Positions 755 through 54,873 of a DNA stretch of 64,000 bases are shown here, one piece after another; the stretch's first letter is position 1; the number at the start of each line of letters is the position of its first letter. The notes under the pieces are model-generated. The model was not told where the DNA came from, did not search any database, and worked only from the letters and a program-made list of their open reading frames with translations. Position numbers and translations under genes: made by a program. Source of the DNA: Candidatus Levyibacteriota bacterium (GTDB lineage: Bacteria; Patescibacteriota; Microgenomatia; Levybacterales; UBA12049); assembly GCA_963716145.1 (NCBI GenBank), contig OY970292.1:533171-597170 (forward strand), given 5' to 3'.

Positions 755-1394
755 ATGCATTTTGTGATTTTCACCGGCGGTACTCTGCAAAAAGGGCGGG
801 CTGTTGAGAACTCTTTGAAAAACTTTGACAAAATAATTGCTGTTGATAGCGGCGCTTCACACTGTACCCAACTCAAGCTAATCCCCGATTTTGTAGTTGG
901 CGACTTTGATTCTGTGGATAAAAGGATCCTTAAAAACTTTGAACAAAAAGGCTCCAAAATACTTAAATTCTCGCAGGAAAAAGACGCAACGGATACTGAA
1001 ATTGGAATTCAAACTGCCATTGAGCATGGCGCAACCAAAGTAAGCGTTCTTGGAGGACGCAGGAGATAGAATAGATCACATTCTCTCCAACATCCTGCTT
1101 CTTTTGAAAGAAAAATTCGCAAAAACGCGAATAAACTTCGTTAATGAAAATCAGCGAATTTTTATTGCAAGAAAAACCGTAAGCATTTCCGGCAAAAAGG
1201 GAGACACAGTATCTTTTATTCCAATTACGGGGAATGTGCCCGGCGTTGTCTCAACCGGCCTGAAATATAACCTTGCCAACTATCATCTCTCAATCCAAGG
1301 AAACCACGGAATAAGTAATGTGTTAACGCAGGATACAGCCACCGTAACCTGGAAAAAAGGCCCCTTCCTCATCGTCCACACTCAGCAAAGCTGA
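755..1394 (+). pseudogene. thiamine pyrophosphokinase (TPK/ThiN family), split by a +1 frameshift near 1055-1060
   Basis: ORF 755-1069 carries the TPK catalytic motifs (GDFDS, EKDATDTE). It ends in VLGGRRR*. ORF 1050-1394 in the next frame continues AGDRIDHILSNILLL and the thiamine-binding domain. Removing one base in ggaggaCgcagga restores the conserved LGGxGDRIDH motif. Confidence 0.6.
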
Positions 1395-1489: not shown

Positions 1490-1993
1490 ATGGCAGAAAA
1501 CGATGGAGACAATCCAAAAGTAGTCCCGAAAGGGACTAACGAAGGACCCAAACTGGAGCAACCAAAGCATCTTGATCCTCCCGCGAGTAAAACAAGCGCA
1601 CTCCCCGGAGCTGATGCTCCAACTGTAAACCCTGCTGCTGATGCCGCAGAGATAAGAGAGCTAAGAGATGAACTCTTAGCGATGGCAAGATTCGGCAATG
1701 AAGAGGATGCACGAGTTATCAATGATGAACTTGACCGCTTCATAGGACAAAAACAAGCAGAAGGAGGAAACCCTATTGCCGAGGATACTTCGGCCGCCAA
1801 AGGTGAGGCCGCAGAAAATGGACTACACGATGACACAAGTTCTCCCCCTGAAAAAACAGACGATGTGCCTAATCCACCAGATCCAGACGCAGCTTCTACG
1901 CAGACACCTGCTTTGCTAACTGGCGATGCTGCTACAGCAAAAGGTCAACCCCGCAGCAGTGTAATAGTACATGCGGAAGCCACCCCGCGATGA
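1490..1993 (+). CDS. hypothetical acidic Ala/Asp/Pro-rich protein
   Basis: ORF with low-complexity acidic composition. It overlaps the next ORF out of frame. Confidence 0.3.
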   Translation: MAENDGDNPKVVPKGTNEGPKLEQPKHLDPPASKTSALPGADAPTVNPAADAAEIRELRDELLAMARFGNEEDARVINDELDRFIGQKQAEGGNPIAEDTSAAKGEAAENGLHDDTSSPPEKTDDVPNPPDPDAASTQTPALLTGDAATAKGQPRSSVIVHAEATPR

Positions 1994-2993
1994 ACCCACA
2001 AGGCCAACCGATGAAGGTATTTTACTTCCGCACACTGAGGTTTATCCGCATATTGAAATACCTAGTAATGCAACTATTCATATTCTTTTTGGCCGACACC
2101 ACACGGCAGCAGATATAGGTGATATTGATAGATTTACAGCTCTTGTTAGAGGAAGCGATATTGTTATTCCTGAGGTAGCAGGATGGGAAGAGTCGGGACA
2201 AAAACTATATAACAGAGTAGCGAAAGGAGACTATGATGCTCGACAAAGACTAATAGCTGCTTTTGAAGGCTTAGCTAGGCAGGGAATGCCTGGTGCTGAA
2301 TTTGAGATAGAAGTAGTTAAAGCTCTATATAGCAGCGGTGCTCAAATTGCTTACGTTGATCTGCCCAAATCACATCCTGATGCTACACTAGACCCTTATA
2401 AGTTTATTGGAAAATTCCCGATTATAGGAAGTTTTGAAGAAGGAATTACCCGTTTGGATTCCAATATGCGAAAAGGTGCAAAGCATCAAAGATCAAGAGA
2501 GATAACAATTATAAAAACCCTTGGCGAATTACTCCCTAAAGCTATATCAAAACATCCTAAGCTAAAAGATAAGCCGGATGCCAAGGTTTTAATGTGGCTT
2601 GGTAAAATTCATACTCCTGTATTTGATGCTTTGCACAGAGATCACGGAGCTCAAGTCAGTAGTGAGTTTTATAAAGAACCACAACCTGACAATATTAGGG
2701 AGTTAGTGCTTGATTATGCTACGGGAGAAATTGACAGCCTGCCGCAAGAGGAAAGAAGGCTTGCTCAAGGAAGAGTACTTGCTGAAGTTGCAGCATCCAC
2801 GGCATTTCGTGGACTAGGTATTGATCCCTCACGATATACACAGGATGAGGTTTCCGCCAGAACTGCCAGAGTGATTAAACCTCTCTCTCTTGAGCAACTA
2901 GCAGAACTTTATAATGCTATTGCAAATAATCAAAGAGATAATATGACAGCATTAGGTTTCCAGACCTCATTAATAAGAGAATTTGCCCGATAG
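1971..2993 (+). CDS. hypothetical protein
   Basis: 340-codon ORF with native-like codon usage. No recognisable motifs. Confidence 0.4.
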   Translation: MRKPPRDEPTRPTDEGILLPHTEVYPHIEIPSNATIHILFGRHHTAADIGDIDRFTALVRGSDIVIPEVAGWEESGQKLYNRVAKGDYDARQRLIAAFEGLARQGMPGAEFEIEVVKALYSSGAQIAYVDLPKSHPDATLDPYKFIGKFPIIGSFEEGITRLDSNMRKGAKHQRSREITIIKTLGELLPKAISKHPKLKDKPDAKVLMWLGKIHTPVFDALHRDHGAQVSSEFYKEPQPDNIRELVLDYATGEIDSLPQEERRLAQGRVLAEVAASTAFRGLGIDPSRYTQDEVSARTARVIKPLSLEQLAELYNAIANNQRDNMTALGFQTSLIREFAR

Positions 2994-3212: not shown

Positions 3213-4226
3213 ATGAAAAAACTCATTCTTCTTTTTGTTATTCTAATAATTGTTCTTTTTGCCCTCTTTCCCTTTCAGAATCAATCTCCCAAGAACCAAG
3301 AACCAAAAACCAAGAACTTTACTATCGCTCTTGACTGGACCCCCAACACCAACCACACCGGTATATATGTAGCACTGCAAAAAGGTTGGTACAAAGAGCA
3401 AGGCCTTGATATAAAAATTCTCCCCTACTCGCAAGTATCAGCTGATACTCTGGTATCCACAGGTAAAGCTGACGCCGGTATCAGTTCAACCGAAAATATA
3501 GTAGCGGATGCAGCGACAGGAAATCCTGTCGTCTCAATTGCCGCGATAATTGCGCATAACACATCAGCACTTGTCGCCCTGTCTGACAGCGACATCAAAA
3601 GCCCCCGCGACTTGGACGGAAAAATCTATGGTGGATTCGGATTGCCTTATGAACAAGCTGTGGTTAGCGAAGTGATTAAGCATGATGGCGGAACAGGCGA
3701 ATTTAAAAATGTAACACTTACCACCTCTGCCATGCAGGCTTTGGAGAGTAAAAAAATTGATTTTGTCTGGATTTTTATGAGTTGGGAAGGAATTGAGGCA
3801 AACCGTGCCAAACTTGGTTTGAAAGTTTTCCCTATCCCGATGTTTGGTATCCCCGATTATTCAACACCAAATATAATAACTTCTAAAAAAACGCTTGAGG
3901 AGAAAAAATTGCTAATCAAAAAATTTATGAACGCAACAAAACGTGGATTTGAATATGCAAGGATTCATCCCAAAGAATCTGCTCAGATTCTTATTGATGC
4001 TACGCCAAAAGGCACTTTTCCTGACACTGGGCTGGTCACTGACAGTCAAATATTCCTAAGTCCGCTTTATGCTGACCCTGGGAAAGCTTGGGGACTGCAG
4101 GACAAAGCCATGTGGCATAATTATCCGAAGTTTATGCTCCAGGCAGGAGCTGTAACTGACGTAGAGGGTAAAAAAGTGACCAAGTTGGATTTAGAAAGTT
4201 TGTATACCAATGAATTTTTGCAATAA
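3213..4226 (+). CDS. ABC transporter substrate-binding protein, NMT1/THI5-like (ThiY-like HMP/thiamine-precursor binding)
   Basis: Signal/TM N-terminus. NMT1/THI5 domain pattern (ALDWTPNTNHTGIYVA...GKADAGISS...DLDGKIYGG). It is preceded by the TPP riboswitch. Confidence 0.8.
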   Translation: MKKLILLFVILIIVLFALFPFQNQSPKNQEPKTKNFTIALDWTPNTNHTGIYVALQKGWYKEQGLDIKILPYSQVSADTLVSTGKADAGISSTENIVADAATGNPVVSIAAIIAHNTSALVALSDSDIKSPRDLDGKIYGGFGLPYEQAVVSEVIKHDGGTGEFKNVTLTTSAMQALESKKIDFVWIFMSWEGIEANRAKLGLKVFPIPMFGIPDYSTPNIITSKKTLEEKKLLIKKFMNATKRGFEYARIHPKESAQILIDATPKGTFPDTGLVTDSQIFLSPLYADPGKAWGLQDKAMWHNYPKFMLQAGAVTDVEGKKVTKLDLESLYTNEFLQ

Positions 4227-4288
4227 ATTTTCATTTTTCAATTTAAAATTTGAAATGAAACTTAAATGTTTAAAAATTTAAATTTGAA

Positions 4289-4309
4289 CCTTGCCTGCCG
4301 GCAGGCAGG
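4289..4309. repeat. GC palindrome cctgcctgccggcaggcagg, copy 1
   Basis: Perfect 20-nt palindrome 60 nt after the thiY-like stop. A near-identical copy lies at 43253-43272. Confidence 0.6.
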
Positions 4310-4392
4310 AATTCATTGAAAATTGTCCATTCGACAAGCTCAGGATCCTGAGTGTATCGAAGGAAAAATTTCAAATTGAAAATTATATTAAT

Positions 4393-5154
4393 ATGTCGGA
4401 TGAAATTCTTCGTATCTCGCGCTTAAATAAAATATTCCCAAACAATCTACAAGCTCTCAGTGAGATCGCGTTTTCTGTCAAAAAGCAGGAATTTGTGAGC
4501 ATAATCGGCCCATCAGGATGCGGCAAAAGTACACTTTTTAATATCCTAGCGGGGGTTGAAAATCAAACAACCGGCGCGGTTGAATTAAATGGAAAAACTG
4601 TCGCAAAGCGAGCTGGATTATTTGGCTACATGCCCCAATCCCCTCTTCTTCTTCCCTGGAGAACAGTTCTTGAAAATGTAATACTGGGCCAGGATGTACT
4701 GCGCGTACCACGAAAAATCTCCAAACAAAAAGCAATGAAAATTCTGCAGCAATTTGGTCTGTCTGAATTTGCTGCTAACTATCCAAATACTCTATCAGGA
4801 GGAATGAAGCAGCGAATTGCGCTGATCCGTACAGTCCTTTTTCAAAAAGACTTCCTTTTGCTTGATGAACCTTTTGGGGCTCTGGACTCACTCACCCGAT
4901 TATCCTGCCAGCTGTGGCTACTGGAGCTACAGAAAAAGCTCAAACCGACAATTCTTTTCATAACTCACGACGTGCGGGAAGCCATCTTCTTATCAGACAC
5001 TATCTATGTACTAAGTCCACGACCCGGGAAAATTATTAAAAAATTTGAGGTAGGACTTCCCCGACCAAGACAAAAAGAACAACTAGCATCACAACTTGCT
5101 GTCAGGTTGGAGCAGAAAATTCTGTCGCACCTTTTTAACGAAAAAAGTCTATGA
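4393..5154 (+). CDS. ABC transporter ATP-binding protein (NitT/TauT family)
   Basis: Walker A GPSGCGKST, signature LSGGMKQR, Walker B LLLDEP. The start is moved to the ATG at 4393; the track start at 4291 lies inside a palindrome. Confidence 0.85.
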   Translation: MSDEILRISRLNKIFPNNLQALSEIAFSVKKQEFVSIIGPSGCGKSTLFNILAGVENQTTGAVELNGKTVAKRAGLFGYMPQSPLLLPWRTVLENVILGQDVLRVPRKISKQKAMKILQQFGLSEFAANYPNTLSGGMKQRIALIRTVLFQKDFLLLDEPFGALDSLTRLSCQLWLLELQKKLKPTILFITHDVREAIFLSDTIYVLSPRPGKIIKKFEVGLPRPRQKEQLASQLAVRLEQKILSHLFNEKSL

Positions 5155-5900
5155 AACTGAAAAAAATCGCGCAATTCGGACCAAGCATTATTTTTCTCTT
5201 CCTAATTTTTCTGGTATGGGAAATTTTTGCTGAGTCTAATCAAATAAATAGCCGCTTGCTTCCCGCCCCATCAAAAATTGTTGCTGCACTGGTTAATAAT
5301 TGGAGCATCATCGCTCCCCACGCTTTCCAAACAATTCTTGAAACTATTATCGGCTTTGTAATCGCAATAATTCTTGGCGTAATTGTAGCCCTACTTTTGG
5401 ATTTCTCCCCCTGGGTGAGACGGACACTCTATCCCCTTCTTGTCACTTCTCAAACAATTCCCATGATCGCGCTTGCTCCTCTGCTGCTTGTATGGTTCGG
5501 GTTTGACCTTTTACCCAAAGTGATTATGGTTATATTGTTTTGCTTTTTCCCGATCGCTATCGCGACAGCCGACGGACTTGCTTCAACTGATAGTGACCTT
5601 TTAAAACTTCTCAAAAGTATGAACGCATCCTATTTTCAAACATTAAGATACGTCAAATTTCCAGGAGCTCTTCCGCAATTTTTTGCAGGTACTAAAATCG
5701 CAGCGACATACAGCCTTACAGGCGCTATTGTTGGTGAATATGTGGGGGCCTACCGAGGACTTGGGATTTATATGCAAACGATGAGCAATTCCCAGGCAAC
5801 AGTTCTTGTCTTTGCCGCGATTGTGGTAACAACACTGCTTAGTTTGGCGTTATTTGGAGTTATTATGCTGATTGAAAAAATCTGCACACCTTGGAATTAA
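5151..5900 (+). CDS. ABC transporter permease (NitT/TauT family)
   Basis: Polytopic membrane protein. ATGA start/stop overlap with the ATPase gene. Confidence 0.8.
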   Translation: MKLKKIAQFGPSIIFLFLIFLVWEIFAESNQINSRLLPAPSKIVAALVNNWSIIAPHAFQTILETIIGFVIAIILGVIVALLLDFSPWVRRTLYPLLVTSQTIPMIALAPLLLVWFGFDLLPKVIMVILFCFFPIAIATADGLASTDSDLLKLLKSMNASYFQTLRYVKFPGALPQFFAGTKIAATYSLTGAIVGEYVGAYRGLGIYMQTMSNSQATVLVFAAIVVTTLLSLALFGVIMLIEKICTPWN

Positions 5901-9218: not shown

Positions 9219-9266
9219 AGTAGTCTCCAAACATTTCCCCTGTTATAATTTGCTATAATACAATTT

Positions 9267-13914: not shown

Positions 13915-13970
13915 TCCATATTTTATTCGTTTTGTGACCAAAAATTTAATTAAAATGCTACAATAACCAT

Positions 13971-15200
13971 ATGAAATCCTTTAATAAAACTGTTGTTCTC
14001 GGGATAACCAGCGGGATTGCTGCTTACAAGTCACTAGAGTTAATAAAATTGCTAAAACAGGAGGGACTTGAAGTTTTTGTAATCATGACCAAAAGCGCCG
14101 CCTTGATGGTATCCCCAGCTGAATTTAAAAAAGCCTCAGGAAATGATGTTGCCATTGAACTATTCAAGGATAAATTTGATTACAAAGATGTCTTAAAATC
14201 AAGAAAAGTTGATCATATCGAGCTAGCTGACAGAGCTGATGTCATGATTATTTGCCCGGCAACTGCCAACGTAATCGCGAAAATCGCTTACGGAATAGCT
14301 GATGATTTCCTGACTACCACAGCGCTTGCTATCACCTCCCCTCTTATTATTTGTCCCTCAATGAATGTAAATATGTGGAACAATCCTTCTGTTGTTGAGA
14401 ATCTGGCTAAACTGAAAACCCAAGGAATACAAATTATTGAACCCACAGAAGGCATGCTTGCATGTGGTTATGAGGGAAAAGGCAGACTTGAAAATATAGC
14501 TGTGATTAAACAGGAAGTAATGAAACAAATAAACCGTAGCAGTTCACTTGCGGGAAAAAAAGTGATTGTAACAGCAGGTGGAACTCAGGAAAAAATTGAT
14601 GAGGTAAGATTTATAACCAACAAAAGCTCAGGAAAAATGGGGGTCGCGATTGCTGAGGAATGCTATCTTCGCGGGGCTGATGTTTTACTTCTCCGGGCTG
14701 AAAGTTCGGTCAAGCCACGTTATTTGATTCCTGAAAAAACCTTTATTACGGCTGCTGAATTACAAACTTTGGTCAAAGAGTATACTCCAGAATATAATAT
14801 TCTTTTCCACGTCGCGGCGGTATCTGATTTTTTGCCTGAAAAAATAACTAAAGGAAAAATCTCAAGCAAAAATATTGTTGCTCTAAAACTTAAACCCGCT
14901 CCCAAAATAGCTGACCAAATCAAAAAAATCAACCCAAAGATTAAGCTAATTGCGTTCAAAGCCGAATATGCACTAAGCGAGAAAGAGCTAATACGAGCTG
15001 CGCAGCACAAATTAAAAGAATGTGATGCTGATGCAATTATTGCCAATGATATAAGTAAACCCGACCGCGGTTTTGAGGCTGACACAAACGAGCTACAGGT
15101 TATTATAAAAAATGGCAAACAGCAAAAAATCCCTCTTAACTCCAAAAGGCAAGTAGCATCAGTTGCAATGGATTTTATTACTGAAGAATTAAATATCTAA
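13971..15200 (+). CDS. coaBC: bifunctional phosphopantothenoylcysteine decarboxylase / phosphopantothenate-cysteine ligase
   Basis: N-terminal flavoprotein motifs (GITSGIAAYK, PATANVIAKIAYGIADD) and a C-terminal CoaB/DFP domain. Confidence 0.9.
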   Translation: MKSFNKTVVLGITSGIAAYKSLELIKLLKQEGLEVFVIMTKSAALMVSPAEFKKASGNDVAIELFKDKFDYKDVLKSRKVDHIELADRADVMIICPATANVIAKIAYGIADDFLTTTALAITSPLIICPSMNVNMWNNPSVVENLAKLKTQGIQIIEPTEGMLACGYEGKGRLENIAVIKQEVMKQINRSSSLAGKKVIVTAGGTQEKIDEVRFITNKSSGKMGVAIAEECYLRGADVLLLRAESSVKPRYLIPEKTFITAAELQTLVKEYTPEYNILFHVAAVSDFLPEKITKGKISSKNIVALKLKPAPKIADQIKKINPKIKLIAFKAEYALSEKELIRAAQHKLKECDADAIIANDISKPDRGFEADTNELQVIIKNGKQQKIPLNSKRQVASVAMDFITEELNI

Positions 15201-15201
15201 G

Positions 15202-16038
15202 ATGAGTAGTGCAAAAGCATTCGCGCCTGCAAATATCAGCTGCGCTTTTAAGATTTATGAGCACAAAAATCCACGCTGGGCAGGCTCACTCGGATTTGGA
15301 TTTACTCTTAAAGAAGGAATAACTGTGGAAGTTACCAAATCAAAAACAAGCAAAGTTTTTTTTAATAAAAAGCAGGTCGATTTCCCGACAATAAGACAAG
15401 TTATAAATTCTTTGACAAAAGAGAAAATAGTTGTGAATCTAACTTCTCCCCTGCCTCTTGGCTGTGGGTTTGGCTTGAGCGGAGCAAGCGCGCTGGCAGC
15501 GTCTTACGCCTTAAATAAATTGTTGAAACTTGGTAAATCCAAAAAGCAGCTGGCTATTATTGCACACGTCGCGGAGGTTGAAAATAAAACCGGTTTGGGC
15601 GATGTAACAAATCAATATTACGGAGGTTTTTTGGTGAAATTCAAGCCCAGCTCACATTTTGAAGTTATCAAAATTCCGCTTAAGGATGTTCCAATTTTCT
15701 GCCTGAGCTTTGATAAACTACCTAATAACTCCATCCTTAACAATACAAGATTAACAGCTGATATAAATAGAGAAGCAGCAGTTGCATTGGGTAAAATGCA
15801 GGACTTGCTAAAATCAGGAGAGAAAGTGGAACTTGGATATATTATCAAGCTTTCAAAAGAATTTGCAATAAAATCAGGACTGCTTACAGATAAAAAAGTA
15901 ATTGAAACTATAGAGGCTATCGAAAAAGATAGTGGTCAGGCTTCAATGATAATGCTCGGAGATGCTGTATTCAGCAATATCAATTTCCCCGGCGCAAAGA
16001 GATTAACAATATCAGACCAGGGAGCGTATGTAATATAA
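15202..16038 (+). CDS. GHMP-family small-molecule kinase (candidate pantoate kinase)
   Basis: GHMP motif II PLGCGFGLSGASALAASYA and an N-terminal APANISCAF motif. 278 aa, overlapping the coaBC stop. Confidence 0.5.
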   Translation: MSSAKAFAPANISCAFKIYEHKNPRWAGSLGFGFTLKEGITVEVTKSKTSKVFFNKKQVDFPTIRQVINSLTKEKIVVNLTSPLPLGCGFGLSGASALAASYALNKLLKLGKSKKQLAIIAHVAEVENKTGLGDVTNQYYGGFLVKFKPSSHFEVIKIPLKDVPIFCLSFDKLPNNSILNNTRLTADINREAAVALGKMQDLLKSGEKVELGYIIKLSKEFAIKSGLLTDKKVIETIEAIEKDSGQASMIMLGDAVFSNINFPGAKRLTISDQGAYVI

Positions 16039-16064
16039 AAGCTTATCTATTCGTAAATATAATT

Positions 16065-16263
16065 TTGTGTGAGCATTCAAACAAGCGCGTTTACCCCGCT
16101 AAGCGGGGTTAAGAAATTGTGAATGAATTGTCAGGGGGAATCCGGCTCGAAGCTGAAAGCTGAGTGGCCGAAGGGGGCGGACAATCCCCCGACAATGAAT
16201 GAAACAATTTTAGCGCGACTTTGCAGCTCACAAGCTTTTGGTTCTTTTGTCGACACAAAAGAA
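16065..16263 (+). repeat. copy A of a conserved structured element (candidate small RNA)
   Basis: About 80% identity to 53549-53711 with two indels, and a compensated terminal hairpin (gttcttttgt-cgac-acaaaagaac). A TATAAT box sits at 16056-16061 just upstream. A long-range helix pairs ttgtcaggggg with cccccgacaa. Confidence 0.55.
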
Positions 16264-16293
16264 CAACCACAATCTGCTATAATCCATCTATTC

Positions 16294-17802
16294 ATGAAAC
16301 GGCAAATTTCAGCAACCATGGCCACGCAGCATCCTGACCATGCAGGTGTACCTTACTGGCATGACCGGGAATTCATAAGAACCAGTTACGAGTCGCACGA
16401 AACATTTGAGGCATTTTCTGAGCTTGGAATTCGCGAGTATAAATGGGACTGGGAGGGCAAACTTGTTGATGAATCGGTGCTTGAAAGATTGTTTGGGGAG
16501 CATTTTGAATTCTTTAAAAAAAACCCCTTGGGACAAAAAACATTTTTGACATTCAGACTCCCAAATCCCAAAGTCGAGACCGAATTCCGAATAGGTCGTG
16601 CTTTTATGAACCTAGCAAGTGCCGCAAGTGTCGCAAAGCATTTCGGGCTCCCTACTCCCCCGCTTTTTGAAGTGATTCTCCCCATGACCACATCAGCTGA
16701 GGAGATCTTTGAGATTCAAGTTGCCTATCAGCAAATTCACGCACTCACCCATCCTTTGTATCGCTTGAATAGTATTCTGACCAATCCCCGCATCATCCCA
16801 TTGTTTGAAGATGTTGAGACAATAATTAACTCTGACAAAATAATCGAAAAGTACATAAATCTTTATAAAAAACGGTTTAAAAAGACACCTCCATATATCC
16901 GCCCGTACGTTGCACGGAGTGATCCGGCTTTGAATTTCGGAATGGTACCTACAGTCTTTGCCATAAAAATTGCGCTATCAAGGTACGCAAAGTTGTCTAA
17001 GAAACTCAGGATTCCTTTTTATCCGATCATCGGAGCAGCTGTTCTTCCCTTCCGTGGAGGGATAGATCCAACGCGTATTGAGAAATTCGCTGATGAATAC
17101 AGAGGAATCCGCACAACCACAATTCAAAGTGCTTTCAGGTATGATTTTCCCAAAAAAGACGTTATAAAAGCCATAAAATATCTTGAAAAGACCCTCCCAC
17201 AACAAAAAGCGGAAATCATCCCAGCTAGCGAAGAAAATGAAATGATCAAGCTCATACCTTACTTTGAAAGTTCGTATCGCGAAACAATCGAAAAAATTGC
17301 ACCAGTAATAAATACTATTTCGGGTTTTTTACCCAGGCGCCGCGAAAGAGTCCAGCACATCGGACTTTTTGGATATTCAAGAGGAGTTGGTAAAGTAAAG
17401 CTACCGCGAGCAATTGGATTCACCGCAGCCCTTTATTCAATCGGCGTGCCTCCTGAATTCATAGGGACAGGAAGAGGCATAAAGCAAGCTAAAAAACTAG
17501 GTAAATTGGCAATCGTAAAAAAATATTATAAATATGTTTCAGAAGATCTGGATCAAGCAGGCAGATATCTAAATACTGATAATTTGAATAAACTGAGCAA
17601 GAAATCAAACGCTTGGAAAAAAGTATTGGAAGACATAAAGGCGGTCGAAGAAACATTGGGGATAAAACTCAGACCCATAACAAAAGAGGAAAAAGAACAC
17701 AAAAAACTTACTGATAAAATTTATGCGCAGCTGGATTCAGGAGACGTAATGCTCACCGAGCTAATCACCAAAGCCGCAATTCTCCGGAAAAGTTTGGGAT
17801 AA
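16294..17802 (+). CDS. archaeal-type phosphoenolpyruvate carboxylase (PepcA family)
   Basis: N-terminal MATQHPDHAG motif, GYSRGVGK (analogue of the classical GYSDSGK), and a C-terminal Gly. The start is moved to an in-frame ATG downstream of the repeat element; the track start at 16123 lies inside that element. Confidence 0.7.
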   Translation: MKRQISATMATQHPDHAGVPYWHDREFIRTSYESHETFEAFSELGIREYKWDWEGKLVDESVLERLFGEHFEFFKKNPLGQKTFLTFRLPNPKVETEFRIGRAFMNLASAASVAKHFGLPTPPLFEVILPMTTSAEEIFEIQVAYQQIHALTHPLYRLNSILTNPRIIPLFEDVETIINSDKIIEKYINLYKKRFKKTPPYIRPYVARSDPALNFGMVPTVFAIKIALSRYAKLSKKLRIPFYPIIGAAVLPFRGGIDPTRIEKFADEYRGIRTTTIQSAFRYDFPKKDVIKAIKYLEKTLPQQKAEIIPASEENEMIKLIPYFESSYRETIEKIAPVINTISGFLPRRRERVQHIGLFGYSRGVGKVKLPRAIGFTAALYSIGVPPEFIGTGRGIKQAKKLGKLAIVKKYYKYVSEDLDQAGRYLNTDNLNKLSKKSNAWKKVLEDIKAVEETLGIKLRPITKEEKEHKKLTDKIYAQLDSGDVMLTELITKAAILRKSLG

Positions 17803-24384: not shown

Positions 24385-24409
24385 ATATTTCCTGTGCTAA
24401 AATACATTT

Positions 24410-25965: not shown

Positions 25966-26649
25966 ATGAAAAGAAGACTGATTCTTGCTCATTGGATAAT
26001 TGATTACGCCTACCGGGTAAGAGGTGAGGTACAAATGTACCGCTACCGCAAAGTTCCTACACACTTCCCTATAAGCAAACAACGTAAATCCCCCATTATA
26101 TTTCTCTCCGGTTTTACTCTAAGATGGGGATTTCTCAAACATCTTGCAGACCAGCTTTCACTTGACGATTATCCTGTTTACGTTGTTCAGGAACTTAAAA
26201 ATAACATTGGCGATATCCCAAAGTCCGCAGCAAAAGTCAAGACTATTATGGATATAAATAATCTTAAAAACGTGATAATTATTGGCCACAGTAAAGGAGG
26301 ATTAATTGGAAAATACCTACTTATTCACCACAATCAAGACAATCAAATCAAAACAGTAATTGCAATTGCGAGCCCATTCTCTGGTACTACTCTTGCCCGC
26401 AAAATTCCCTTCCCATCATTTAAAGAAGTGGCTGACAAAAGCAAAATGATAAAAGAAATGGCAACAAATAATAAAGTTAATTCAAAAATTATATCAGTTT
26501 TCCCTGCTTTCGATAACCATGTCTGGCCTCAGGGAAGCAGCTTTCTGCAAGGCGCAAAAAATGTAGAATTGAAAGTAAAGGGCCACCACCGAATTGTTTT
26601 TGATAAAGGTACTCAACAGGTAATAATAGATTGTATTAAAAATTTATGA
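25966..26649 (+). CDS. alpha/beta-hydrolase (lipase/esterase-like)
   Basis: GHSKGG nucleophile-elbow motif. The start is moved to an internal ATG. Confidence 0.5.
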   Translation: MKRRLILAHWIIDYAYRVRGEVQMYRYRKVPTHFPISKQRKSPIIFLSGFTLRWGFLKHLADQLSLDDYPVYVVQELKNNIGDIPKSAAKVKTIMDINNLKNVIIIGHSKGGLIGKYLLIHHNQDNQIKTVIAIASPFSGTTLARKIPFPSFKEVADKSKMIKEMATNNKVNSKIISVFPAFDNHVWPQGSSFLQGAKNVELKVKGHHRIVFDKGTQQVIIDCIKNL

Positions 26650-26972
26650 GTATGAAATGCGGAGTTGACATCATCTACATTCCGGGTATTGCCAAAATAC
26701 GAAATGATGCCAGTCTGCTGGAAAAGTTTTTCCATACAAACGAGATTGAGAATCCAACTCCTGAACATCTAGCAGGACTAATTGCCGCCAAAGAAGCCTT
26801 TTTTAAAGCACTTGGTAGGCCTCCGAAATTTCTGGAAATCCAAATCCGACACAAAGAGTCCGGCAAGCCTGAAATAATAGTCTCTCCTGAATTTAAAAAG
26901 TATAAATCAATTGATGTCTCAATAAGCCATGATGGAGATTACGCAATTGCTTTTGTTATACTTGAGGTATGA
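26646..26972 (+). CDS. acpS: holo-ACP synthase (4'-phosphopantetheinyl transferase)
   Basis: GVDIIYI...AAKEAFFKALG...SISHDGDYAIAFV, the AcpS-family pattern. 108 aa. Confidence 0.7.
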   Translation: MSMKCGVDIIYIPGIAKIRNDASLLEKFFHTNEIENPTPEHLAGLIAAKEAFFKALGRPPKFLEIQIRHKESGKPEIIVSPEFKKYKSIDVSISHDGDYAIAFVILEV

Positions 26973-29464
26973 TCAGAACCATCCCCGACCTAATTGAAAC
27001 CTTCAAAACTCGTGATAAAACCGCCATCATCCAAAAAACCGGCGTTCGTACTTTTACCTATACATACAAGCAATTTTATAAAAATATTCTAAAAACCCAG
27101 ACTATGCTTGACAGACTTGGCCTCAAAAAAGGAGATAAGATTCTTCTCTGGGGATTCAACGGCCCATCATGGGGCACTCTTTTTCTTGCAGCTGCCCGAT
27201 CCGGAATCATCATAGTTCCTGTTGATTTTTTGAGCCTGCCTGAATTTGTTAAAAGTCTAAAGGAGATTGTCGGCGCAAAAGCGATCTTTCACTCTGAATT
27301 TAAAATCCCGCCTGAAATGGGAATCAAAAAAGTAATTATTGAGAATCTGGATTTTTATATTAAAGACCTTCCCCAAAAAACGGAAAAGACAGAAATCTCA
27401 GAAAATGATTTACTGGAAATCGTCTTCACATCAGGAACAACGGGTGACCCCAAAGGCGTGATGCTGACTCATAAAAATCTTGTTTCAAATATAGAAGGTG
27501 TCTTAAAAGTTATAAAAATAAATCCCGAGCAAACCTTTTTGTCTCTTCTTCCGATGAGCCACTTATTTGAGCAAAACCCCGGTTTTTTGGCTCCGTTAAG
27601 CGCGGGCTGTACTATCGTTTACATGAAGGGGCTCAGGCCAAATCTCATTTTCAAGACACTCTCGGAAGTCAAAATAACCAATATCGCGCTTGTCCCCAGG
27701 CTCTTAAAATTGTTTTATGACGGCATTATGCGCGAAGTTGAAGCAACAGGAAAGACAAAAACATTTAATAAATTGCTCAACTTAGATCTCCCAAAACCAG
27801 TCCGGAAAATTTTATTTTCAAAAGTTCATAAAAAATTCGGGACTCATTTTCAGTATTTTATCTCAGGCGGCGCGCCGCTTAGCGAGGAACTCGATACCTT
27901 CTGGAAAAAGTTAGGATTTACAATTGTTGAGGGTTACGGCCTGTCGGAATGCTCCCCCATACTTACTGCCAATACTCCTCAGAAACAAGTTCCCAGATCA
28001 GTGGGTAAACCTATCCCGGGCGTAACTCTTAAGATCAATAATAGCGGTGAAGTTCTGGTCAAGGGCGACAACATAACTCAGGGTTATTTTCAGAAAAAGG
28101 AACAAACAAAAGCACTGTTTGATGGCAAATGGATGAAGACAGGCGACATCGGATCATTGGACAAAGACAACTATCTTTTCCTAAAAGGAAGGGCAAAAGA
28201 TATAATTGTGACAGGGGCTGGTGTCAATGTTTATCCTGAGGATATTGAAAAGGTCCTCATGAAAAATAACGATGTCAAAGATGTCTGTGTCTTGGGAGTT
28301 CCAACTGACGCGGGCGAAGAGGTGCATGCAGAAATAATTTTGAAGGATCCCAAAACAAACCTCAAATCAATCATCGATTCTACCAATAAAGAATTAAATG
28401 AAGCCCAGCAAATTCTCTCTTTTGCCCTCTGGAATACAGACGATTTCCCCCGGACGACCACAATGAAGATCAAAAAGCGCTTTGTTTTGAGCGAGATTAA
28501 CGAGCGCGAGAAGAAAGACACCACACTAAAAGCTGAGAATAAATCCAAACTTCACGAAATAATTGCCAAGATAAATGACATTGATCCGCGGACAATCAAA
28601 CCATCATCCAACCTTTCACTTGATCTGAAACTCACTTCAGTAAATAAAATTGAATTAATTTCAATAATAGAGCAAGAATTCAATCTTGATATTGATGAAG
28701 ATGAAATTAACAACAAAACAACAGTCGTAGATCTTGAGAAGATAATTAAAGACCGCCGCCGTTTCAGCAAAAAAGATGTATTCAGGCGATGGACGCTTGC
28801 GATGCCAATCAGGATACTTAGATTTGTTTGGAATCTTATAATTGGTGACAATCTGATTTATCTCTTTTGCAGACGCGAGGTTGTGGGGCTTGAGAACTTA
28901 AAAGATCTAAATCAACCGGCTATCTTCATCGCGAACCACATCGGGTATTTTGACGCGCCAAATGTGCTGATGTCGCTTCCATTCGGCATCCGCAATAAAA
29001 TAGCAACCGCTGCCTGGAAGGAGTATTTCACAACTGATGGAGATCCCCTCTTTAAAAATAAAGTTCTTGATCATCTTCTCTGGAAATTCTACTACCAATA
29101 CACAACTATTTTTGTAAACGTCTATATGTTCCCCAAAAAAACCGGTTTTAAGGAAAGTCTTGAGTACACGGGAGAGCTCTTGGATAAAAATTGGAATATT
29201 TTATTTTTTCCTGAAGGCGAACACTCGCCCGATGGAACTCTTCAGCCTTTCCGCTCGGGAATCGGCTGGATTGCCAAGGAAATGAGAGTACCAATTGTCC
29301 CCATTAAGCATTTTGGTCTTTCGAAAATCATGGCAGGTGATCCGCACCAATTCCCCAGATTTGGAAAAGTTACGATCAAAATCGGCAAACCGGTGATGCT
29401 TGATTACACCAAATCAATTCCGGAAATAACTAATCAACTCCACGATATAATTGCGAAGATGTAA
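26969..29464 (+). CDS. tri-domain acyl-ACP synthetase - ACP - 1-acylglycerol-3-phosphate acyltransferase fusion (Aas-like, reversed domain order)
   Basis: N-terminal AMP-binding enzyme (TSGTTGDPKGV, GYGLSE). Central ACP-like segment (LSLDLKLTSVNKIELISIIEQEFNLDIDEDE). C-terminal PlsC motifs (NHIGYFDAP, FPEGEHSPDG). Confidence 0.7.
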   Translation: MIRTIPDLIETFKTRDKTAIIQKTGVRTFTYTYKQFYKNILKTQTMLDRLGLKKGDKILLWGFNGPSWGTLFLAAARSGIIIVPVDFLSLPEFVKSLKEIVGAKAIFHSEFKIPPEMGIKKVIIENLDFYIKDLPQKTEKTEISENDLLEIVFTSGTTGDPKGVMLTHKNLVSNIEGVLKVIKINPEQTFLSLLPMSHLFEQNPGFLAPLSAGCTIVYMKGLRPNLIFKTLSEVKITNIALVPRLLKLFYDGIMREVEATGKTKTFNKLLNLDLPKPVRKILFSKVHKKFGTHFQYFISGGAPLSEELDTFWKKLGFTIVEGYGLSECSPILTANTPQKQVPRSVGKPIPGVTLKINNSGEVLVKGDNITQGYFQKKEQTKALFDGKWMKTGDIGSLDKDNYLFLKGRAKDIIVTGAGVNVYPEDIEKVLMKNNDVKDVCVLGVPTDAGEEVHAEIILKDPKTNLKSIIDSTNKELNEAQQILSFALWNTDDFPRTTTMKIKKRFVLSEINEREKKDTTLKAENKSKLHEIIAKINDIDPRTIKPSSNLSLDLKLTSVNKIELISIIEQEFNLDIDEDEINNKTTVVDLEKIIKDRRRFSKKDVFRRWTLAMPIRILRFVWNLIIGDNLIYLFCRREVVGLENLKDLNQPAIFIANHIGYFDAPNVLMSLPFGIRNKIATAAWKEYFTTDGDPLFKNKVLDHLLWKFYYQYTTIFVNVYMFPKKTGFKESLEYTGELLDKNWNILFFPEGEHSPDGTLQPFRSGIGWIAKEMRVPIVPIKHFGLSKIMAGDPHQFPRFGKVTIKIGKPVMLDYTKSIPEITNQLHDIIAKM

Positions 29465-32731: not shown

Positions 32732-33400
32732 TTATAGTATTGGTCTTCTTCTCTCTCTTTCCATTCTTCTTCGCACTTCTTCTCCTTCACCCCTACGTAA
32801 TCGTGTAACTGCTAGTCGTCCTCTCCGAACTGTGGGTATAACATCCGGTATTACAATGTCTGACAGTGTAATGGTGACTACTCTTGAATCTGACCCTCCG
32901 TTTCTTTCTGGTGAGATAGGCGATGTTTGCTCAGGAACTGCTGCTATTGCAGGTTTTACTTCCGATGGTTGGGTAACTCCTAAAGGCTTGTCTGCAATAG
33001 ATATAGTTGACATTTTTCCTCCCAAAACAACAGCTTCTGCAGGCCTCATATGCCTTTCTGCTGTAGGCTCTGGAACGGATAAATCAAGCTGTTTTGCTCG
33101 TGAAGAGGCGGCTCTTGCACGCCTTCTCCTTCTTTCCTCGCGGGCTGTTTCCCTAGCGGCGACTCTTGCACGCATTTCGGCACCCTCCATTGGGAGAACC
33201 ACTGCCGAGTTTGTTCGAACAGACGCAACGGTTTGTTTTGCGCGCCAAGCTGCTTCATCTCTAACTGAACGAGGCATAGGAGACGTAACAGTACCGCCTT
33301 CTACAGATAACCCTTGCCTTTTTCTAACCCGCGCCAGTGGCTCAATAGATGTTTCATCCGGAACGGGAACTCTTGATCTTCTTTCAACAAATAATGCCAT
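32732..33400 (-). CDS. Arg-rich low-complexity hypothetical protein
   Basis: 222-aa ORF (Arg/Ala/Glu-rich, RRRRRARAASSRAK) with AT-biased codons. The region is about 47% GC and open on both strands. Confidence 0.3.
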   Translation of the reverse strand: MALFVERRSRVPVPDETSIEPLARVRKRQGLSVEGGTVTSPMPRSVRDEAAWRAKQTVASVRTNSAVVLPMEGAEMRARVAARETAREERRRRRARAASSRAKQLDLSVPEPTAERHMRPAEAVVLGGKMSTISIADKPLGVTQPSEVKPAIAAVPEQTSPISPERNGGSDSRVVTITLSDIVIPDVIPTVRRGRLAVTRLRRGEGEEVRRRMERERRRPIL

Positions 33401-37198: not shown

Positions 37199-37750
37199 GT
37201 GTGGGATTCTTTGGAAGGTAAAGCTGAGAGTGCTTTTTTCGCGCTTTCACCCCAACCTTTTCCTGAAGAACGAAATCGGTAACTGAGATATGAAGGTCCA
37301 AACGCTGGACCAAATCATAACTCTTTTGCACTTTAAAAAACTAGGGATGTATTTTTTGCGTCCCGTAAGGATCATGAAATACTATGGACATCATCTATTA
37401 GCAGTTAAATGCTTTCAAATTTTTGTTGCGACCCATGCTCGCTTCTTCTCTTGTCCCGCGAAGCCTTTTGGCGAAGCGGGAAATCTCTCCGGTTATTTTC
37501 CTAAACTTTAAGCACTACTGTAATTTTGCTTATTTTTATAGGATAATTTATCGGAGAATTACATTCGGGATTGACATCCTACATTGGAGATAAATTATTT
37601 GTCTCCAGCGTTGGATGTCACATCCACCTAATTAGGGCAATTCTCACGGCGACCGCCGGCCCTAGCTTCCCCTAAAGGAGAGACTCGTCCTTACGACAAG
37701 GAGAGACTTTTTCGCAGGGAAAGTATGAGAGACAGACAAGGAGCAACACC

Positions 37751-38385
37751 ATGCAACGTCCATCCATCCGCCGAGGATTCGTGGCCGCTTTGGTCGCAAT
37801 TGGGATCGGTCTTACCACCGCCCCCGCCCCGGCGCTCGCCGACAACACCGACGTCAACGCCATCGTCGCCCAGGCCCGTGCCGACGCCACCACCCGTGTG
37901 GAAGCCGCTCTCGCAGCAGCCAACGCTCGTGTCGCAACCGTCGCCGCCCCGGCCCAGGCCGCCGACAACAACATCACGGCCACCCCGGCCAGCACCACCT
38001 CGGAGGCAACCGCCACCGAGTCCACCTACCAGGCACCCGCCGACACCGGCAACGCCAACAGCGGCACCGTCGAGGTCGCACCTGACCCCGTCGTCGCTTC
38101 GGCACCCGTCGTCGTCGAGGCAGCAGCTGTCGCTGTGGAGGCGCCGCCCCCGCCCCGGCCCTTGCCGTTTCGGCGCCTGTCGCACCCCTGGACTTCAACA
38201 TCCAGAACCCTGCCCAACCGGGGCAGAGGGTGCGCTTCGTGCGTTCCGAGGACGGGTCGTTCAGCGTGATCGCCACCAACAGGACCGGTTCGAACCAGTC
38301 CGCCCGCGTGTTCGCAGACCCCGTCTCGATCGGGATCGGCGTCCGCAACGGGAGCAAGAACTTCACCGGCGTCTTCAGCAGGTAG
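37751..38385 (+). pseudogene. high-GC (about 70%) Actinobacteria-like Ala/Pro-rich secreted protein gene, frameshifted
   Basis: AAGGAG ribosome-binding site 7 nt before the ATG. Signal peptide MQRPSIRRGFVAALVAIGIGLTTAPAPALA. GCC/GAC/ACC/GTC codon usage. The frame breaks in a C-run at about 38140-38165 and continues in another frame (DFNIQNPAQPGQRVRFVRSEDGSFSVIATN...) to the TAG at 38383-38385. Confidence 0.5.
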
Positions 38386-38958
38386 TCGCTTCACCAGGTG
38401 ATGCATCAAGGAAGGTTGACGGAATTTCTGTCTCAGGCCTCGGCTTGACTCAAGAGCTCGTCAGCTCCCCGCGATGCATCGCCTTTAGCTTTTAGCTTGC
38501 AAGGATGATCGTCCTCCTCCCTAGTTGGGAACTTTTTATGTGCCTAAAAAGCGCTAGTTCCCAACAGGGAGGGTGGATTCACTGATGTGGATTTTTCCTC
38601 GTAGAGGAGACATTTTCACATTTGTGATATTTTATTTTTTACGCGTTGCGGCTAAGCTGTTTCTGAGCAATTCGCGCTCCTTTTCACCGCTTACCGCGTA
38701 CCGTTACCCTATCCACCCTCCCTACTTCTATTTTGAGCCCCAATCAGACTTGGCGAAGCCTCGTTTGACGCGGGACTTAGAATAAAAGTATTTCATTATC
38801 TCAAAAATTACTCCTAAGCTCTGATTTATAACCACCATCTACTATCAGTACTTTGTTCCCGTTTGTAATTATTCTTATTTGCTTCTTAGCTGAAGATTTT
38901 TGACGTAGAAAAAACACCTTCATTGACATATAAGCTCCCCTATTTGTATAGTTAAATT

Positions 38959-48196: not shown

Positions 48197-48318
48197 ATAT
48201 ATAACGCCACGAAGAAAATAAAACATTAAATTACTACGTTGGGTTAAATTCGTCTTTGAAAGCTAAGGTAGGTGTACCACATTATTGAAAATGATTGCAG
48301 AGTGGTATAATTAGATTC

Positions 48319-53711: not shown

Positions 53712-54046
53712 TGAAGAAAAGTATTTTCCCCAATCTATCAATTAAAATTGGTAAATTAAAGAAAACAGGCATACAAGGACAAAAGGGTCTCCAACGGGAG
53801 GACAAACGGCGTAAAAACGCAGAAAAGTACTCGATCCGGGGGAGGATCACTCAATTGTAAAAAGACGGGAGACCGCCAAGTCCTTGTTTCCCACCGCTTG
53901 TGGTGAGTAAGTTTCCATGATGGAACGCCCTTCTTTCAAAGCTTAGAAAGCTATATCCACCTTGGGAGTCAGAAGTTCACTACACTTCCATATGAGCGTC
54001 CGATCGACACTCGACTCCCACCTCACTACTTCATTCTCAGAAGTAG

Positions 54047-54355: not shown

Positions 54356-54381
54356 CAGGAACCCACGATGGGGCTACCTAG

Positions 54382-54609: not shown

Positions 54610-54636
54610 TGCTGCTTCTCCTCTCTCAGCGCGGAT

Positions 54637-54852: not shown

Positions 54853-54873
54853 CTGTACGTTTCCTCCGTTTCG

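What the first reader, a model, noticed from the sequence alone, without database searches (positions are those of the whole stretch)
13971..17802. coaBC - GHMP kinase - archaeal-type PEP carboxylase cluster
A 278-aa GHMP kinase overlaps the coaBC stop. In archaea, CoA synthesis runs through a GHMP-family pantoate kinase next to coaBC (established). This would be an archaeal-type phosphopantothenate route in a bacterium. It is followed by an archaeal-type PEPC (TQHPD motif, GYSRGVGK, C-terminal Gly).
Basis: inference. Interest (0 to 1): 0.55.

Follow-up and report, generated by a model that had tools for sequence, protein, structure and literature searches.

The report
Archaeal-type pantoate kinase without its partner
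A tiny symbiotic bacterium (Saccharimonadales) carries the archaeal-style kinase for making the vitamin-B5 part of coenzyme A next to coaBC, but the partner enzyme that every relative keeps beside it is missing, so the kinase may work directly on scavenged vitamin B5.

Summary
All three genes are real: coaBC (13971-15200), a 278-aa GHMP kinase (15202-16038) and an archaeal-type PEPC (true start 16294, to 17802). The kinase abuts the coaBC stop with a 1-nt gap; it does not overlap it. By HMM, sequence and predicted fold it belongs to the pantoate kinase (PoK) family, not to homoserine, shikimate or mevalonate kinases. The window is bacterial (Saccharimonadales, CPR). The bacterial relatives fetched and Woesearchaeota-type archaea mostly carry coaBC-PoK-PPS operons. 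The window's clade (three lineages) is nested among the bacterial copies and has no PPS beside PoK. No PPS or remnant occurs in 64 kb, and none from this genome's 1.14-Mb contig appeared in two database searches. Yet the kinase is under purifying selection and looks like an orthodox PoK. The rest of the genome could not be read. Best guess (0.4): it phosphorylates salvaged pantothenate for CoaBC. Main rival (0.3): an unlinked PPS exists. PEPC has its own conserved promoter and is only a neighbour. An archaeal PoK/PPS route in bacteria was already reported for Poribacteria; the PPS-less arrangement is the new part.

The parts
13956..13964 (+). Extended -10 promoter box TGCTACAAT, ending 6 nt before the coaBC ATG (probably a leaderless transcript)
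   Evidence: pattern scan: 29 boxes against 15.7 +/- 3.1 in shuffles. The box is conserved upstream of coaBC in L002 and L003.
13971..15200 (+). coaBC: bifunctional phosphopantothenoylcysteine synthetase/decarboxylase, 409 aa
   Evidence: TIGR00521 391 bits (cut-off 219.7), with PF02441 and PF04127. Best PDB hit is CoaBC 6tgv at 3e-57. dN/dS 0.10-0.12.
15202..16038 (+). Pantoate kinase (PoK) family GHMP kinase, 278 aa, starting 1 nt after the coaBC stop
   Evidence: NF040725 at 1.2e-44. PDB 6jbc at 8.6e-17 by sequence and TM 0.82, E 2.4e-22 by fold. Functional residues kept except Asn175. dN/dS 0.12-0.17.
16093..16109 (+). G+C-rich hairpin ACCCCGC-TAA-GCGGGGT after the kinase stop; a possible terminator without a T-run
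   Evidence: Read from the sequence. It is part of the stable fold of the spacer. The terminator scan, which requires a T-run, did not call it.
16039..16293 (+). 256-nt spacer with unusually stable predicted structure; separates the coaBC-kinase unit from PEPC
   Evidence: MFE -81.5 kcal/mol, z = -3.86. No Rfam match at E <= 1. Sequence not conserved in L002 or L003 except the promoter end.
16275..16283 (+). Extended -10 box TGCTATAAT, 10 nt before the PEPC ATG: PEPC's own promoter
   Evidence: The box is conserved before PEPC in L002 and L003.
16294..17802 (+). Archaeal-type phosphoenolpyruvate carboxylase (PepcA), 502 aa; an independent neighbour
   Evidence: TIGR02751 500.7 bits (cut-off 146) and PF14010 470.6 bits. 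PDB 3odm at 8e-49. 88.8% and 83.5% identical to the L002 and L003 copies.

Best explanation
coaBC and the 278-aa gene form a two-gene, probably leaderless, operon. It is what remains of a coaBC-PoK-PPS operon that a group of bacteria (at least some of them CPR) shares with Woesearchaeota-type archaea. The kinase is a true member of the pantoate kinase family. In this Saccharimonadales clade the third gene, PPS, was lost from the operon and probably from the genome. The kinase is nevertheless kept under purifying selection next to CoaBC, whose substrate is 4'-phosphopantothenate. So the kinase most likely supplies that compound directly, by phosphorylating pantothenate taken from the host or environment. 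In effect it would be a GHMP-fold pantothenate kinase, using the side activity reported for the Thermococcus enzyme. PEPC is a separately transcribed neighbour with no demonstrated role. Shown: family membership, gene order, absence of PPS from 64 kb and from the sister loci, the derived position in the trees, and purifying selection. Inferred: co-transcription, absence of PPS from the rest of the genome, and the substrate.
For: PoK membership. Bacterial host: NusG-L11-L1-L10-L7/L12, MreB and WecG; the L11 cluster is named Saccharimonadales. Gene order: PPS lies directly after PoK in 31 of 44 loci, including bacterial contigs L018-L021 and L060. No PPS by tblastn or by profile HMM with --max in the window, L002 or L003, while the control scored 430 bits. 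Derived state: the window clade is nested in a bacterial group in both the PoK and CoaBC trees. Genome-wide hint: two PPS searches listed 120 hits each, and none came from a 1,142,061-bp or 105,658-bp contig. A co-evolving PPS is predicted at 66 +/- 3% identity, inside the listed range, and the PPS of a lineage with a more divergent kinase (L061) ranks 15th. Selection: dN/dS 0.12-0.17. Demand for CoA: ACPS and a carrier-domain acyl ligase at 26.6-29.5 kb. Cultured Saccharibacteria are reported to lack pantothenate and CoA synthesis (PMC11659515), which fits salvage. From my own recollection of Yokooji et al. 2009 (J Biol Chem 284:28137; the paper is not held): Thermococcus PoK has low pantothenate kinase activity, with Vmax about 7-fold lower than with pantoate.
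Against: The kinase shows no sign of a changed substrate pocket. No clade-wide substitution occurs at any column that is at least 90% conserved in PPS-linked relatives. Deviations at conserved columns (5-10 of 108) equal those of PPS-linked bacterial copies (5-13). Only seven clade-diagnostic residues exist, none beside the functional positions. The kinase-to-CoaBC rate ratio is not clearly raised. PPS is retained in nearly all relatives, which suggests that kinases of this subfamily do not normally suffice as pantothenate kinases. PoK and PPS can be separated without loss (L061, L044, L045, L055). The rest of the 1.14-Mb genome could not be read, so a relocated or divergent PPS, or a CoaA/CoaX, is not excluded. 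The database argument depends on a top-120 list.
Confidence: 0.4

Rival explanations
1. Orthodox archaeal-type route: the kinase phosphorylates pantoate, and a PPS encoded elsewhere in the genome (relocated, or divergent enough to miss the listed hits) ligates beta-alanine to give 4'-phosphopantothenate for CoaBC.
For: By sequence the kinase cannot be told apart from PPS-linked PoKs: the residues I recall as reported for pantoate recognition are kept across the clade, with no shared change. Unlinked or interrupted PoK/PPS arrangements exist (L061 with one inserted gene; L044, L045 and L055 with PPS 2-2.5 kb away; L017 with none within 10 kb). Only 64 kb of 1.14 Mb was examined.
Against: No PPS from the 1,142,061-bp or 105,658-bp contigs appears among the best 120 hits of two searches, although about 66% identity was predicted and the lists reach down to about 61%. 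No PPS lies within -15/+48 kb of the kinase in the window, or within +/-10 kb (L002) and -10/+4 kb (L003).
Confidence: 0.3
2. PPS is gone but is replaced by an unrelated ligase, or the kinase-CoaBC pair acts on another hydroxy-acid or amide taken from the host.
For: Purifying selection without PPS. Several unannotated ORFs flank the cluster in the three genomes.
Against: No flanking unknown ORF is conserved across the three genomes, and none matches any family. CoaBC is a standard bifunctional enzyme scoring above its equivalog cut-off. There is no positive evidence for this reading.
Confidence: 0.12
3. coaBC, the kinase and PEPC form one functional three-gene module, for example with PEPC feeding oxaloacetate to aspartate to beta-alanine for the pathway.
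For: PEPC lies downstream of the kinase in all three lineages of the clade.
Against: PEPC has its own conserved extended -10 promoter and is separated from the kinase by a hairpin and a 256-nt spacer. Two unrelated genes lie between them in L003. No PEPC lies near PoK in the other bacterial or archaeal loci. With PPS missing, beta-alanine is not needed.
Confidence: 0.05
4. The kinase is a different GHMP kinase (homoserine, archaeal shikimate or mevalonate kinase), or a decaying relic.
For: It scores below NCBIfam's curated pantoate kinase cut-off (152 against 380 bits).
Against: Other kinase models score only 15-39 bits. Subfamily members with an adjacent PPS, including one that NCBI names pantoate kinase, score the same 141-164 bits. 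The fold match to 6jbc is seven orders of magnitude better than to any other GHMP kinase. The ORF is intact in three lineages with dN/dS 0.12-0.17.
Confidence: 0.03

Closest known systems
Archaeal pantoate kinase (PoK; Thermococcus kodakarensis TK2141, PDB 6jbc/6jbd; NCBIfam NF040725/NF041122)
   Same: Same family by HMM, sequence and predicted fold. GHMP motif present. Ser, Ser, His, Glu and Asp at the positions I recall as reported functional. Sits directly after coaBC, as in Methanocellales and Woesearchaeota-type loci.
   Different: Only 26% identical to the solved enzyme. Lys replaces Arg155 (throughout the subfamily) and, in the window's copy only, Asn replaces Thr186. The host is a bacterium. 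No PPS partner nearby.
PoK/PPS route in sponge-symbiotic Poribacteria (Thomes and Lescure 2020, PMC7883664)
   Same: Archaeal-type phosphopantothenate enzymes in a symbiotic bacterium, explained by horizontal transfer. Combined with a bacterial-style bifunctional CoaBC.
   Different: Poribacteria have both PoK and PPS, and their copies group with Euryarchaeota. Here the lineage is CPR, the nearest archaeal relatives are Woesearchaeota-type, and PPS is missing.
coaBC-PoK-PPS operons of other bacterial contigs found here (L020, L021, L060; PoK-PPS in L018, L019, L061; one PPS named Candidatus Levybacteria by NCBI)
   Same: Same bacterial clade in the PoK and CoaBC trees (PoK 51-63% identical, CoaBC 55-63%). 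Same coaBC-PoK junction.
   Different: All of them keep PPS directly, or one gene, downstream of PoK. The window's clade has PEPC or other genes there.
Bacterial and eukaryotic pantothenate kinases, types I-III (CoaA, eukaryotic-type, CoaX)
   Same: Would carry out the same step (pantothenate to 4'-phosphopantothenate upstream of CoaBC) if the best explanation is right.
   Different: No sequence or fold relationship: P-loop or ASKHA folds against a GHMP fold.
Archaeal-type PEPC in bacteria (Clostridium perfringens PepcA, PDB 3odm)
   Same: Same family (TIGR02751/PF14010), about 500-560 aa, conserved motifs and C-terminal Gly.
   Different: An ordinary member. Its link to the CoA genes here is only synteny within one clade.

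Membership tests
Pantoate kinase (PoK) | GHMP kinase N-terminal domain with the phosphate-binding motif | tested here: met
   PF00288 at 1.6e-12, residues 69-142. PLGCGFGLSGAS is visible in the translation.
Pantoate kinase (PoK) | Scores best on PoK models and reaches NCBIfam's curated equivalog cut-off | tested here: inconclusive
   NF040725 scores 152.4 bits and is the best hit by more than 110 bits, but the cut-off is 380. Control: PPS-linked members, one of them named pantoate kinase by NCBI, score 141-164 bits, and Methanocellales 178. The models are narrow.
Pantoate kinase (PoK) | Closest solved structure is PoK, by sequence and by fold | tested here: met
   6jbc at 8.6e-17 against homoserine kinase at 1e-7. 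AF2 model pLDDT 93.1; Foldseek 6jbc TM 0.82, E 2.4e-22, with the next hit at 1e-15.
Pantoate kinase (PoK) | Seven conserved functional residues of TkPoK (S28, S104, H131, E134, D143, R155, T186; Tomita et al. 2012, recalled from memory) | tested here: inconclusive
   S29, S93, H122, E125 and D134 are identical. K146 replaces R155 in the whole subfamily. N175 replaces T186 in the window only; L002, L003 and all 22 PPS-linked sequences keep Thr.
Pantoate kinase (PoK) | Phosphorylates pantoate | not testable with these tools
   Needs an enzyme assay.
Archaeal-type PoK/PPS phosphopantothenate route | PPS (PF02006) present, usually adjacent to PoK | tested here: not met
   No PPS in the 64-kb window, L002 or L003 by tblastn and profile HMM. 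Adjacent in 31 of 44 other loci. None from this genome's contig among the listed database hits. The rest of the genome was not readable.
Archaeal-type PoK/PPS phosphopantothenate route | Absence of conventional PanK (CoaA/CoaX) and pantothenate synthetase (PanC) | tested here: inconclusive
   None in the 64-kb window by Pfam or NCBIfam. The remaining approximately 1.08 Mb could not be examined.
CoaBC (TIGR00521) | Both flavoprotein decarboxylase and DFP ligase domains, above the equivalog cut-off | tested here: met
   391 bits against a cut-off of 219.7, with PF02441 and PF04127.
Archaeal-type PEPC (PepcA, TIGR02751/PF14010) | Full-length match above cut-off, conserved motifs, C-terminal Gly | tested here: met
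   500.7 bits against a cut-off of 146. TQHPD, GYSRGVGK and a terminal G. 3odm at 8e-49.
Homoserine, shikimate (archaeal) or mevalonate kinase | Reaches the family's curated cut-off | tested here: not met
   39.3 bits (cut-off 194) and 32.8 (168) for homoserine kinase; 20 (127) for shikimate kinase; 34 (403) for mevalonate kinase.
Pantothenate kinase types I-III | Sequence membership in the CoaA, CoaX or eukaryotic PanK families | tested here: not met
   No such model among the NCBIfam or Pfam hits of the kinase. Any PanK role would be by analogy, not homology.

The most novel reading that the evidence does not exclude
In this Saccharimonadales clade a pantoate-kinase-family (GHMP-fold) enzyme has become the organism's only pantothenate kinase after loss of PPS. 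That would be a fourth, non-homologous type of PanK. It would let an ultra-small epibiont make 4'-phosphopantothenate from scavenged vitamin B5 with an enzyme of archaeal origin.
Probability: 0.35. Interest if true: 0.7.

Novelty: new variant of a known kind. Interest (0 to 1): 0.5.

Why it matters
The order of the two steps from pantoate to phosphopantothenate was proposed as a marker separating archaea from bacteria, and Poribacteria were the published exception. These data show the archaeal genes in several further bacterial lineages, at least some of them CPR, that share them with Woesearchaeota-type archaea. No paper in the searched library mentions pantoate kinase together with CPR or Patescibacteria. 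The PPS-less clade is a natural experiment. Either the pair can be split across the genome, or a pantoate kinase can take over the pantothenate kinase role, which would add a new analogous enzyme to CoA biosynthesis. It would also change how CoA capacity is scored in CPR genomes, where such genes are labelled 'GHMP kinase' or 'hypothetical'. Cultured Saccharibacteria are described as lacking CoA synthesis, so a lineage with CoaBC plus a kinase bears on how dependent these epibionts are on their hosts.

Tried and rejected
1. Homoserine, shikimate or mevalonate kinase: rejected by HMM scores, PDB sequence search and fold search.
2. A sub-cut-off NCBIfam score as evidence against PoK membership: rejected, because PPS-linked members score the same.
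3. A PPS pseudogene or remnant after the kinase: none found by tblastn at E <= 10 or by profile HMM with --max on six-frame translations of the window, L002 and L003.
4. A relocated PPS on the same contig: two protein searches, one with a single bacterial PPS and one with a profile of five, found none from the 1,142,061-bp contig. The lists stop at 120 hits, so this is not proof.
5. Reading the 1.14-Mb record: failed; only short Logan contigs were returned.
6. The GTDB scan did not contain the window genome. It gave nine loci, one of them bacterial.
7. The metagenome scan gave 38 loci, none from the window's clade.
8. Signs of neofunctionalisation or relaxed selection (clade-specific substitutions, deviation counts, rate ratio against CoaBC): none found.
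9. A riboswitch or known RNA in the structured spacer: no Rfam hit, and the sequence is not conserved.
10. Flanking unknown ORFs as a PPS substitute or pantothenate transporter: no family hits.
11. My own error: the PEPC identities came from a slice one base out of frame. One search exposed this and one search gives the corrected values.
12. The Tomita 2012 and Yokooji 2009 papers are not held, so residue roles and the PanK side activity are from memory.
13. Organism names for L018-L021 could not be obtained.
Full report
OBSERVATION. The ORF listing shows three consecutive plus-strand ORFs at the stated coordinates. coaBC (13971-15200, 409 aa) passes its equivalog cut-off: TIGR00521 scores 391 bits against 219.7. 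The 278-aa ORF (15202-16038) has a GHMP kinase N-terminal domain. The third ORF is an archaeal-type PEPC: TIGR02751 scores 500.7 bits against 146, and PF14010 scores 470.6 bits. It has TQHPD, GYSRGVGK and a C-terminal Gly, and its closest solved structure is Clostridium perfringens PepcA, 3odm.

Two details of the finding are wrong. First, the kinase ATG (15202) follows the coaBC stop (TAA, 15198-15200) after one base, so the genes abut and do not overlap. Second, the 559-aa ORF over-extends PEPC. The family models begin at residue 62, relatives are 502 aa, and the true ATG is at 16294.

ORGANISM. The window is bacterial. It holds NusG-L11-L1-L10-L7/L12, MreB, WecG/TagA and a GMP synthase, plus four tRNA genes. 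Its L11 falls in a 90% cluster with a protein named Candidatus Saccharimonadales bacterium. The 68%-identical kinase P0003 comes from MAGs with the same label. The exact kinase, CoaBC and L11 sequences are on record from one contig of 1,142,061 bp, whose DNA I could not retrieve.

WHAT THE KINASE IS. Its best NCBIfam hit is pantoate kinase: NF040725 at 1.2e-44 and 152 bits, and NF041122 at 86 bits. Homoserine kinase reaches 39 bits, mevalonate kinase 34 and archaeal shikimate kinase 20. The score is below the curated cut-off of 380, but that is a property of the model. Members of the same subfamily with a PPS gene next door, including one NCBI names pantoate kinase, score 141-164 bits, and a Methanocellales PoK scores 178. 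The best PDB sequence hit is Thermococcus kodakarensis pantoate kinase 6jbc at 8.6e-17, with homoserine kinase next at 1e-7. An AlphaFold model (pLDDT 93.1) matches 6jbc at TM 0.82 and E 2.4e-22, against 1e-15 for the next GHMP kinase. From my recollection of Tomita et al. 2012 (the reference is listed but the paper is not held), seven residues matter in TkPoK. Ser28, Ser104, His131, Glu134 and Asp143 are identical here. Arg155 is Lys in the whole subfamily. Thr186 is Asn175 in the window's copy only.

RELATIVES AND GENE ORDER. The homologue search gave 1784 hits. The nearest are P0002 (72%) and P0003 (68%). All others listed are 54-63% identical, and those carrying a source name are labelled Woesearchaeota or Nanoarchaeia.

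In loci with archaeal labels the order is coaBC-PoK-PPS, often with 4-nt overlaps. This covers the Woesearchaeota- and Nanoarchaeia-labelled loci, Methanocellales and Methanolliviera; one of these, L006, also carries an archaeal-type helicase.

The kinases closest to the window's clade sit on bacterial contigs:
- L019 has PheS, L20, L35, IF3, ThrRS and trigger factor.
- L020 has a class A PBP.
- L021 has HrcA-GrpE-DnaK, then coaBC-PoK-PPS, then DnaJ.
- L060 has OmpR-type two-component systems.
- L061 has DnaB.
- L018 has MacB/FtsX, NadD and NadE.
All of them keep PPS directly after PoK, except L061, where one gene is inserted between the two. NCBI names one such PPS as Candidatus Levybacteria.

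Neighbour-joining trees of both PoK and CoaBC put all bacterial copies in one group. That group is sister to the Woesearchaeota-type group and is nested within archaeal diversity, and the window's clade lies inside it. These trees have no support values. The simplest history is one archaeon-to-bacterium transfer of the whole coaBC-PoK-PPS operon, followed by spread among bacteria.

THE ANOMALY. In the window, L002 and L003 (with L004, L005 and L009) the order is coaBC-PoK with no PPS. PEPC follows directly in the window and L002, and after two unrelated genes in L003. Of 44 loci with at least 400 nt downstream of the kinase, 31 have PPS adjacent. Three others have it about 2-2.5 kb upstream, and one has it 269 nt downstream. 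A PPS profile run with --max against six-frame translations found nothing in the window (best E 1.5), L002 or L003, while the control locus scored 430 bits. The PPS-less state is real, derived, and left no remnant.

IS PPS ELSEWHERE? I could not read the rest of the genome. As an indirect test I searched the protein collection with the PPS of the sister lineage and with a profile of five bacterial PPSs. Neither top-120 list, with identities down to about 61%, holds a protein from a 1,142,061-bp or 105,658-bp contig. Across 45 locus pairs, PPS identity tracks PoK identity (r = 0.96), which predicts 66 +/- 3% for a co-evolving PPS of the window genome. The PPS of L061, whose kinase is more divergent from the window's (51%), ranks 15th in the profile search. 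I read this as moderate evidence that this genome has no typical PPS. A divergent or uncalled gene remains possible.

IS THE KINASE STILL USED, AND HAS IT CHANGED? dN/dS among the three lineages is 0.12-0.17, close to CoaBC at 0.10-0.12, with dS near or beyond 1. The gene has therefore been maintained for a long time without an adjacent PPS. Against a change of function:
- No column that is at least 90% conserved in PPS-linked relatives is changed in all three clade members.
- Deviations at conserved columns (5-10 of 108) match those of the bacterial PPS-linked copies (5-13).
- Only seven residues are diagnostic of the clade, and none is beside the functional positions.
- The kinase-to-CoaBC rate ratio (1.25-1.81) overlaps that of comparably close PPS-linked pairs (1.08-1.49).

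TRANSCRIPTION UNITS. An extended -10 box, TGCTACAAT, ends 6 nt before the coaBC ATG. TGCTATAAT ends 10 nt before the PEPC ATG. Both are conserved in L002 and L003. The kinase ATG lies one base after the coaBC stop in both the window and L002. After the kinase come a G+C-rich hairpin (16093-16109) and a 256-nt spacer that folds stably. I infer a leaderless coaBC-kinase bicistron and a separate PEPC transcript. PEPC lies near PoK only in this clade.

MECHANISM. CoaBC needs 4'-phosphopantothenate. With PPS apparently gone and the kinase conserved beside CoaBC, the most economical reading is that the kinase phosphorylates pantothenate taken up from outside. As I recall from Yokooji et al. 2009 (not held), the Thermococcus enzyme does this at a lower rate than with pantoate. 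Cultured Saccharibacteria are reported to lack pantothenate and CoA synthesis (PMC11659515), which makes salvage plausible. The window also encodes CoA consumers: ACPS and a carrier-domain acyl ligase/acyltransferase. I give this reading 0.4. The main rival is an orthodox PoK with an unlinked PPS (0.3). It is favoured by the unchanged sequence and by examples of separated PoK and PPS, and disfavoured by the negative database searches. The remaining probability goes to an unrelated replacement ligase or another substrate (0.12), a functional tie to PEPC (0.05) and a different kinase or a relic (0.03).

COMPARISON WITH WHAT IS KNOWN. PoK and PPS were defined in Thermococcus and are widespread in archaea (PMC6650551). 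Their presence in bacteria was published for sponge-associated Poribacteria, which have both genes (PMC7883664). No paper in the library combines 'pantoate kinase' with Patescibacteria or candidate phyla radiation. The two papers that combine it with DPANN mention DPANN only once each. Archaeal-type PEPC in bacteria is already known (3odm). So the bare claim of an archaeal-type enzyme in a bacterium is a new member of a known kind. The PPS-less coaBC-PoK unit is a new variant. If the kinase serves as a pantothenate kinase, it would be a new analogous enzyme for that step.

LIMITS. The substrate is inferred. The absence of PPS, CoaA or CoaX from the remaining approximately 1.08 Mb is not established. 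The trees are simple NJ trees without support values. Residue roles and the PanK side activity are recalled, not read. One of my own numbers (the PEPC identities) was wrong and is corrected.

Noticed in passing
window 9251-9259, 13956-13964, 16275-16283, 24395-24403, 48303-48311, 18391-18383 (minus strand): Extended -10 boxes (TGnTAnAAT) end only 6-10 nt before the ATG of several genes: DUF2000, coaBC, PEPC, guaA, a PQ-loop ORF and a membrane ORF. There are 29 boxes against 15.7 +/- 3.1 in shuffles. Leaderless or near-leaderless mRNAs seem common in this genome.
   Followed up: partly
window 16039-16293: The 256-nt spacer between the kinase and PEPC folds at -81.5 kcal/mol (z = -3.86) with a long GTCAGGGGGA...TCCCCCGAC stem. 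It has no Rfam match, and its sequence is not conserved in the two sister genomes apart from the promoter end.
   Followed up: partly
window 37700-43215: A G+C-rich island (50-55% against about 40%) with proline-rich ORFs on both strands and a large surface-type protein pair (Big_3_5 and SdrD_B domains, 40478-43215). It is inserted between rplA and rplJ of the ribosomal protein cluster.
   Followed up: no
window 1490-2993, 32732-33400 (-), 45666-46379 (-), 54000-57453: Further ORFs of higher G+C content with no Pfam match, some rich in Arg, Ala and Pro. They may be foreign DNA or non-coding stretches read as ORFs.
   Followed up: no
window 755-1394: Thiamine diphosphokinase is split into two overlapping ORFs: 755-1069 matches TIGR01378 positions 2-98 and 1050-1394 matches positions 99-205. 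This is a frameshift, pseudogene or sequencing error. It lies about 1.8 kb upstream of an NMT1/THI5-type ABC transporter (3213-5900).
   Followed up: partly
window 26646-29464: A holo-ACP synthase (ACPS) overlaps the start of an 831-aa AMP-binding / carrier (PP-binding) / acyltransferase protein (Aas-like). Both consume CoA-derived phosphopantetheine, so the cell needs CoA.
   Followed up: partly
window 15724-15726 (codon 175 of the kinase): The window's kinase has Asn where all 22 PPS-linked relatives, both sister lineages and TkPoK (Thr186) have Thr. It is its only deviation at the 62 columns that are invariant among PPS-linked sequences.
   Followed up: partly
L061 7785-10804; L044, L045 and L055: In some lineages PoK and PPS are separated. 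In L061, a bacterial contig with DnaB, a 439-aa gene on the opposite strand lies between them. In L044, L045 and L055, PPS lies about 2-2.5 kb upstream. The pair is not always a tight operon.
   Followed up: partly
L010 and L011 (GTDB records): Two MAGs titled 'uncultured Methanosarcinales archaeon' carry PoK, PPS and CoaBC that group with Woesearchaeota-type sequences (74-81% identical to L006), which suggests the label is imprecise.
   Followed up: no
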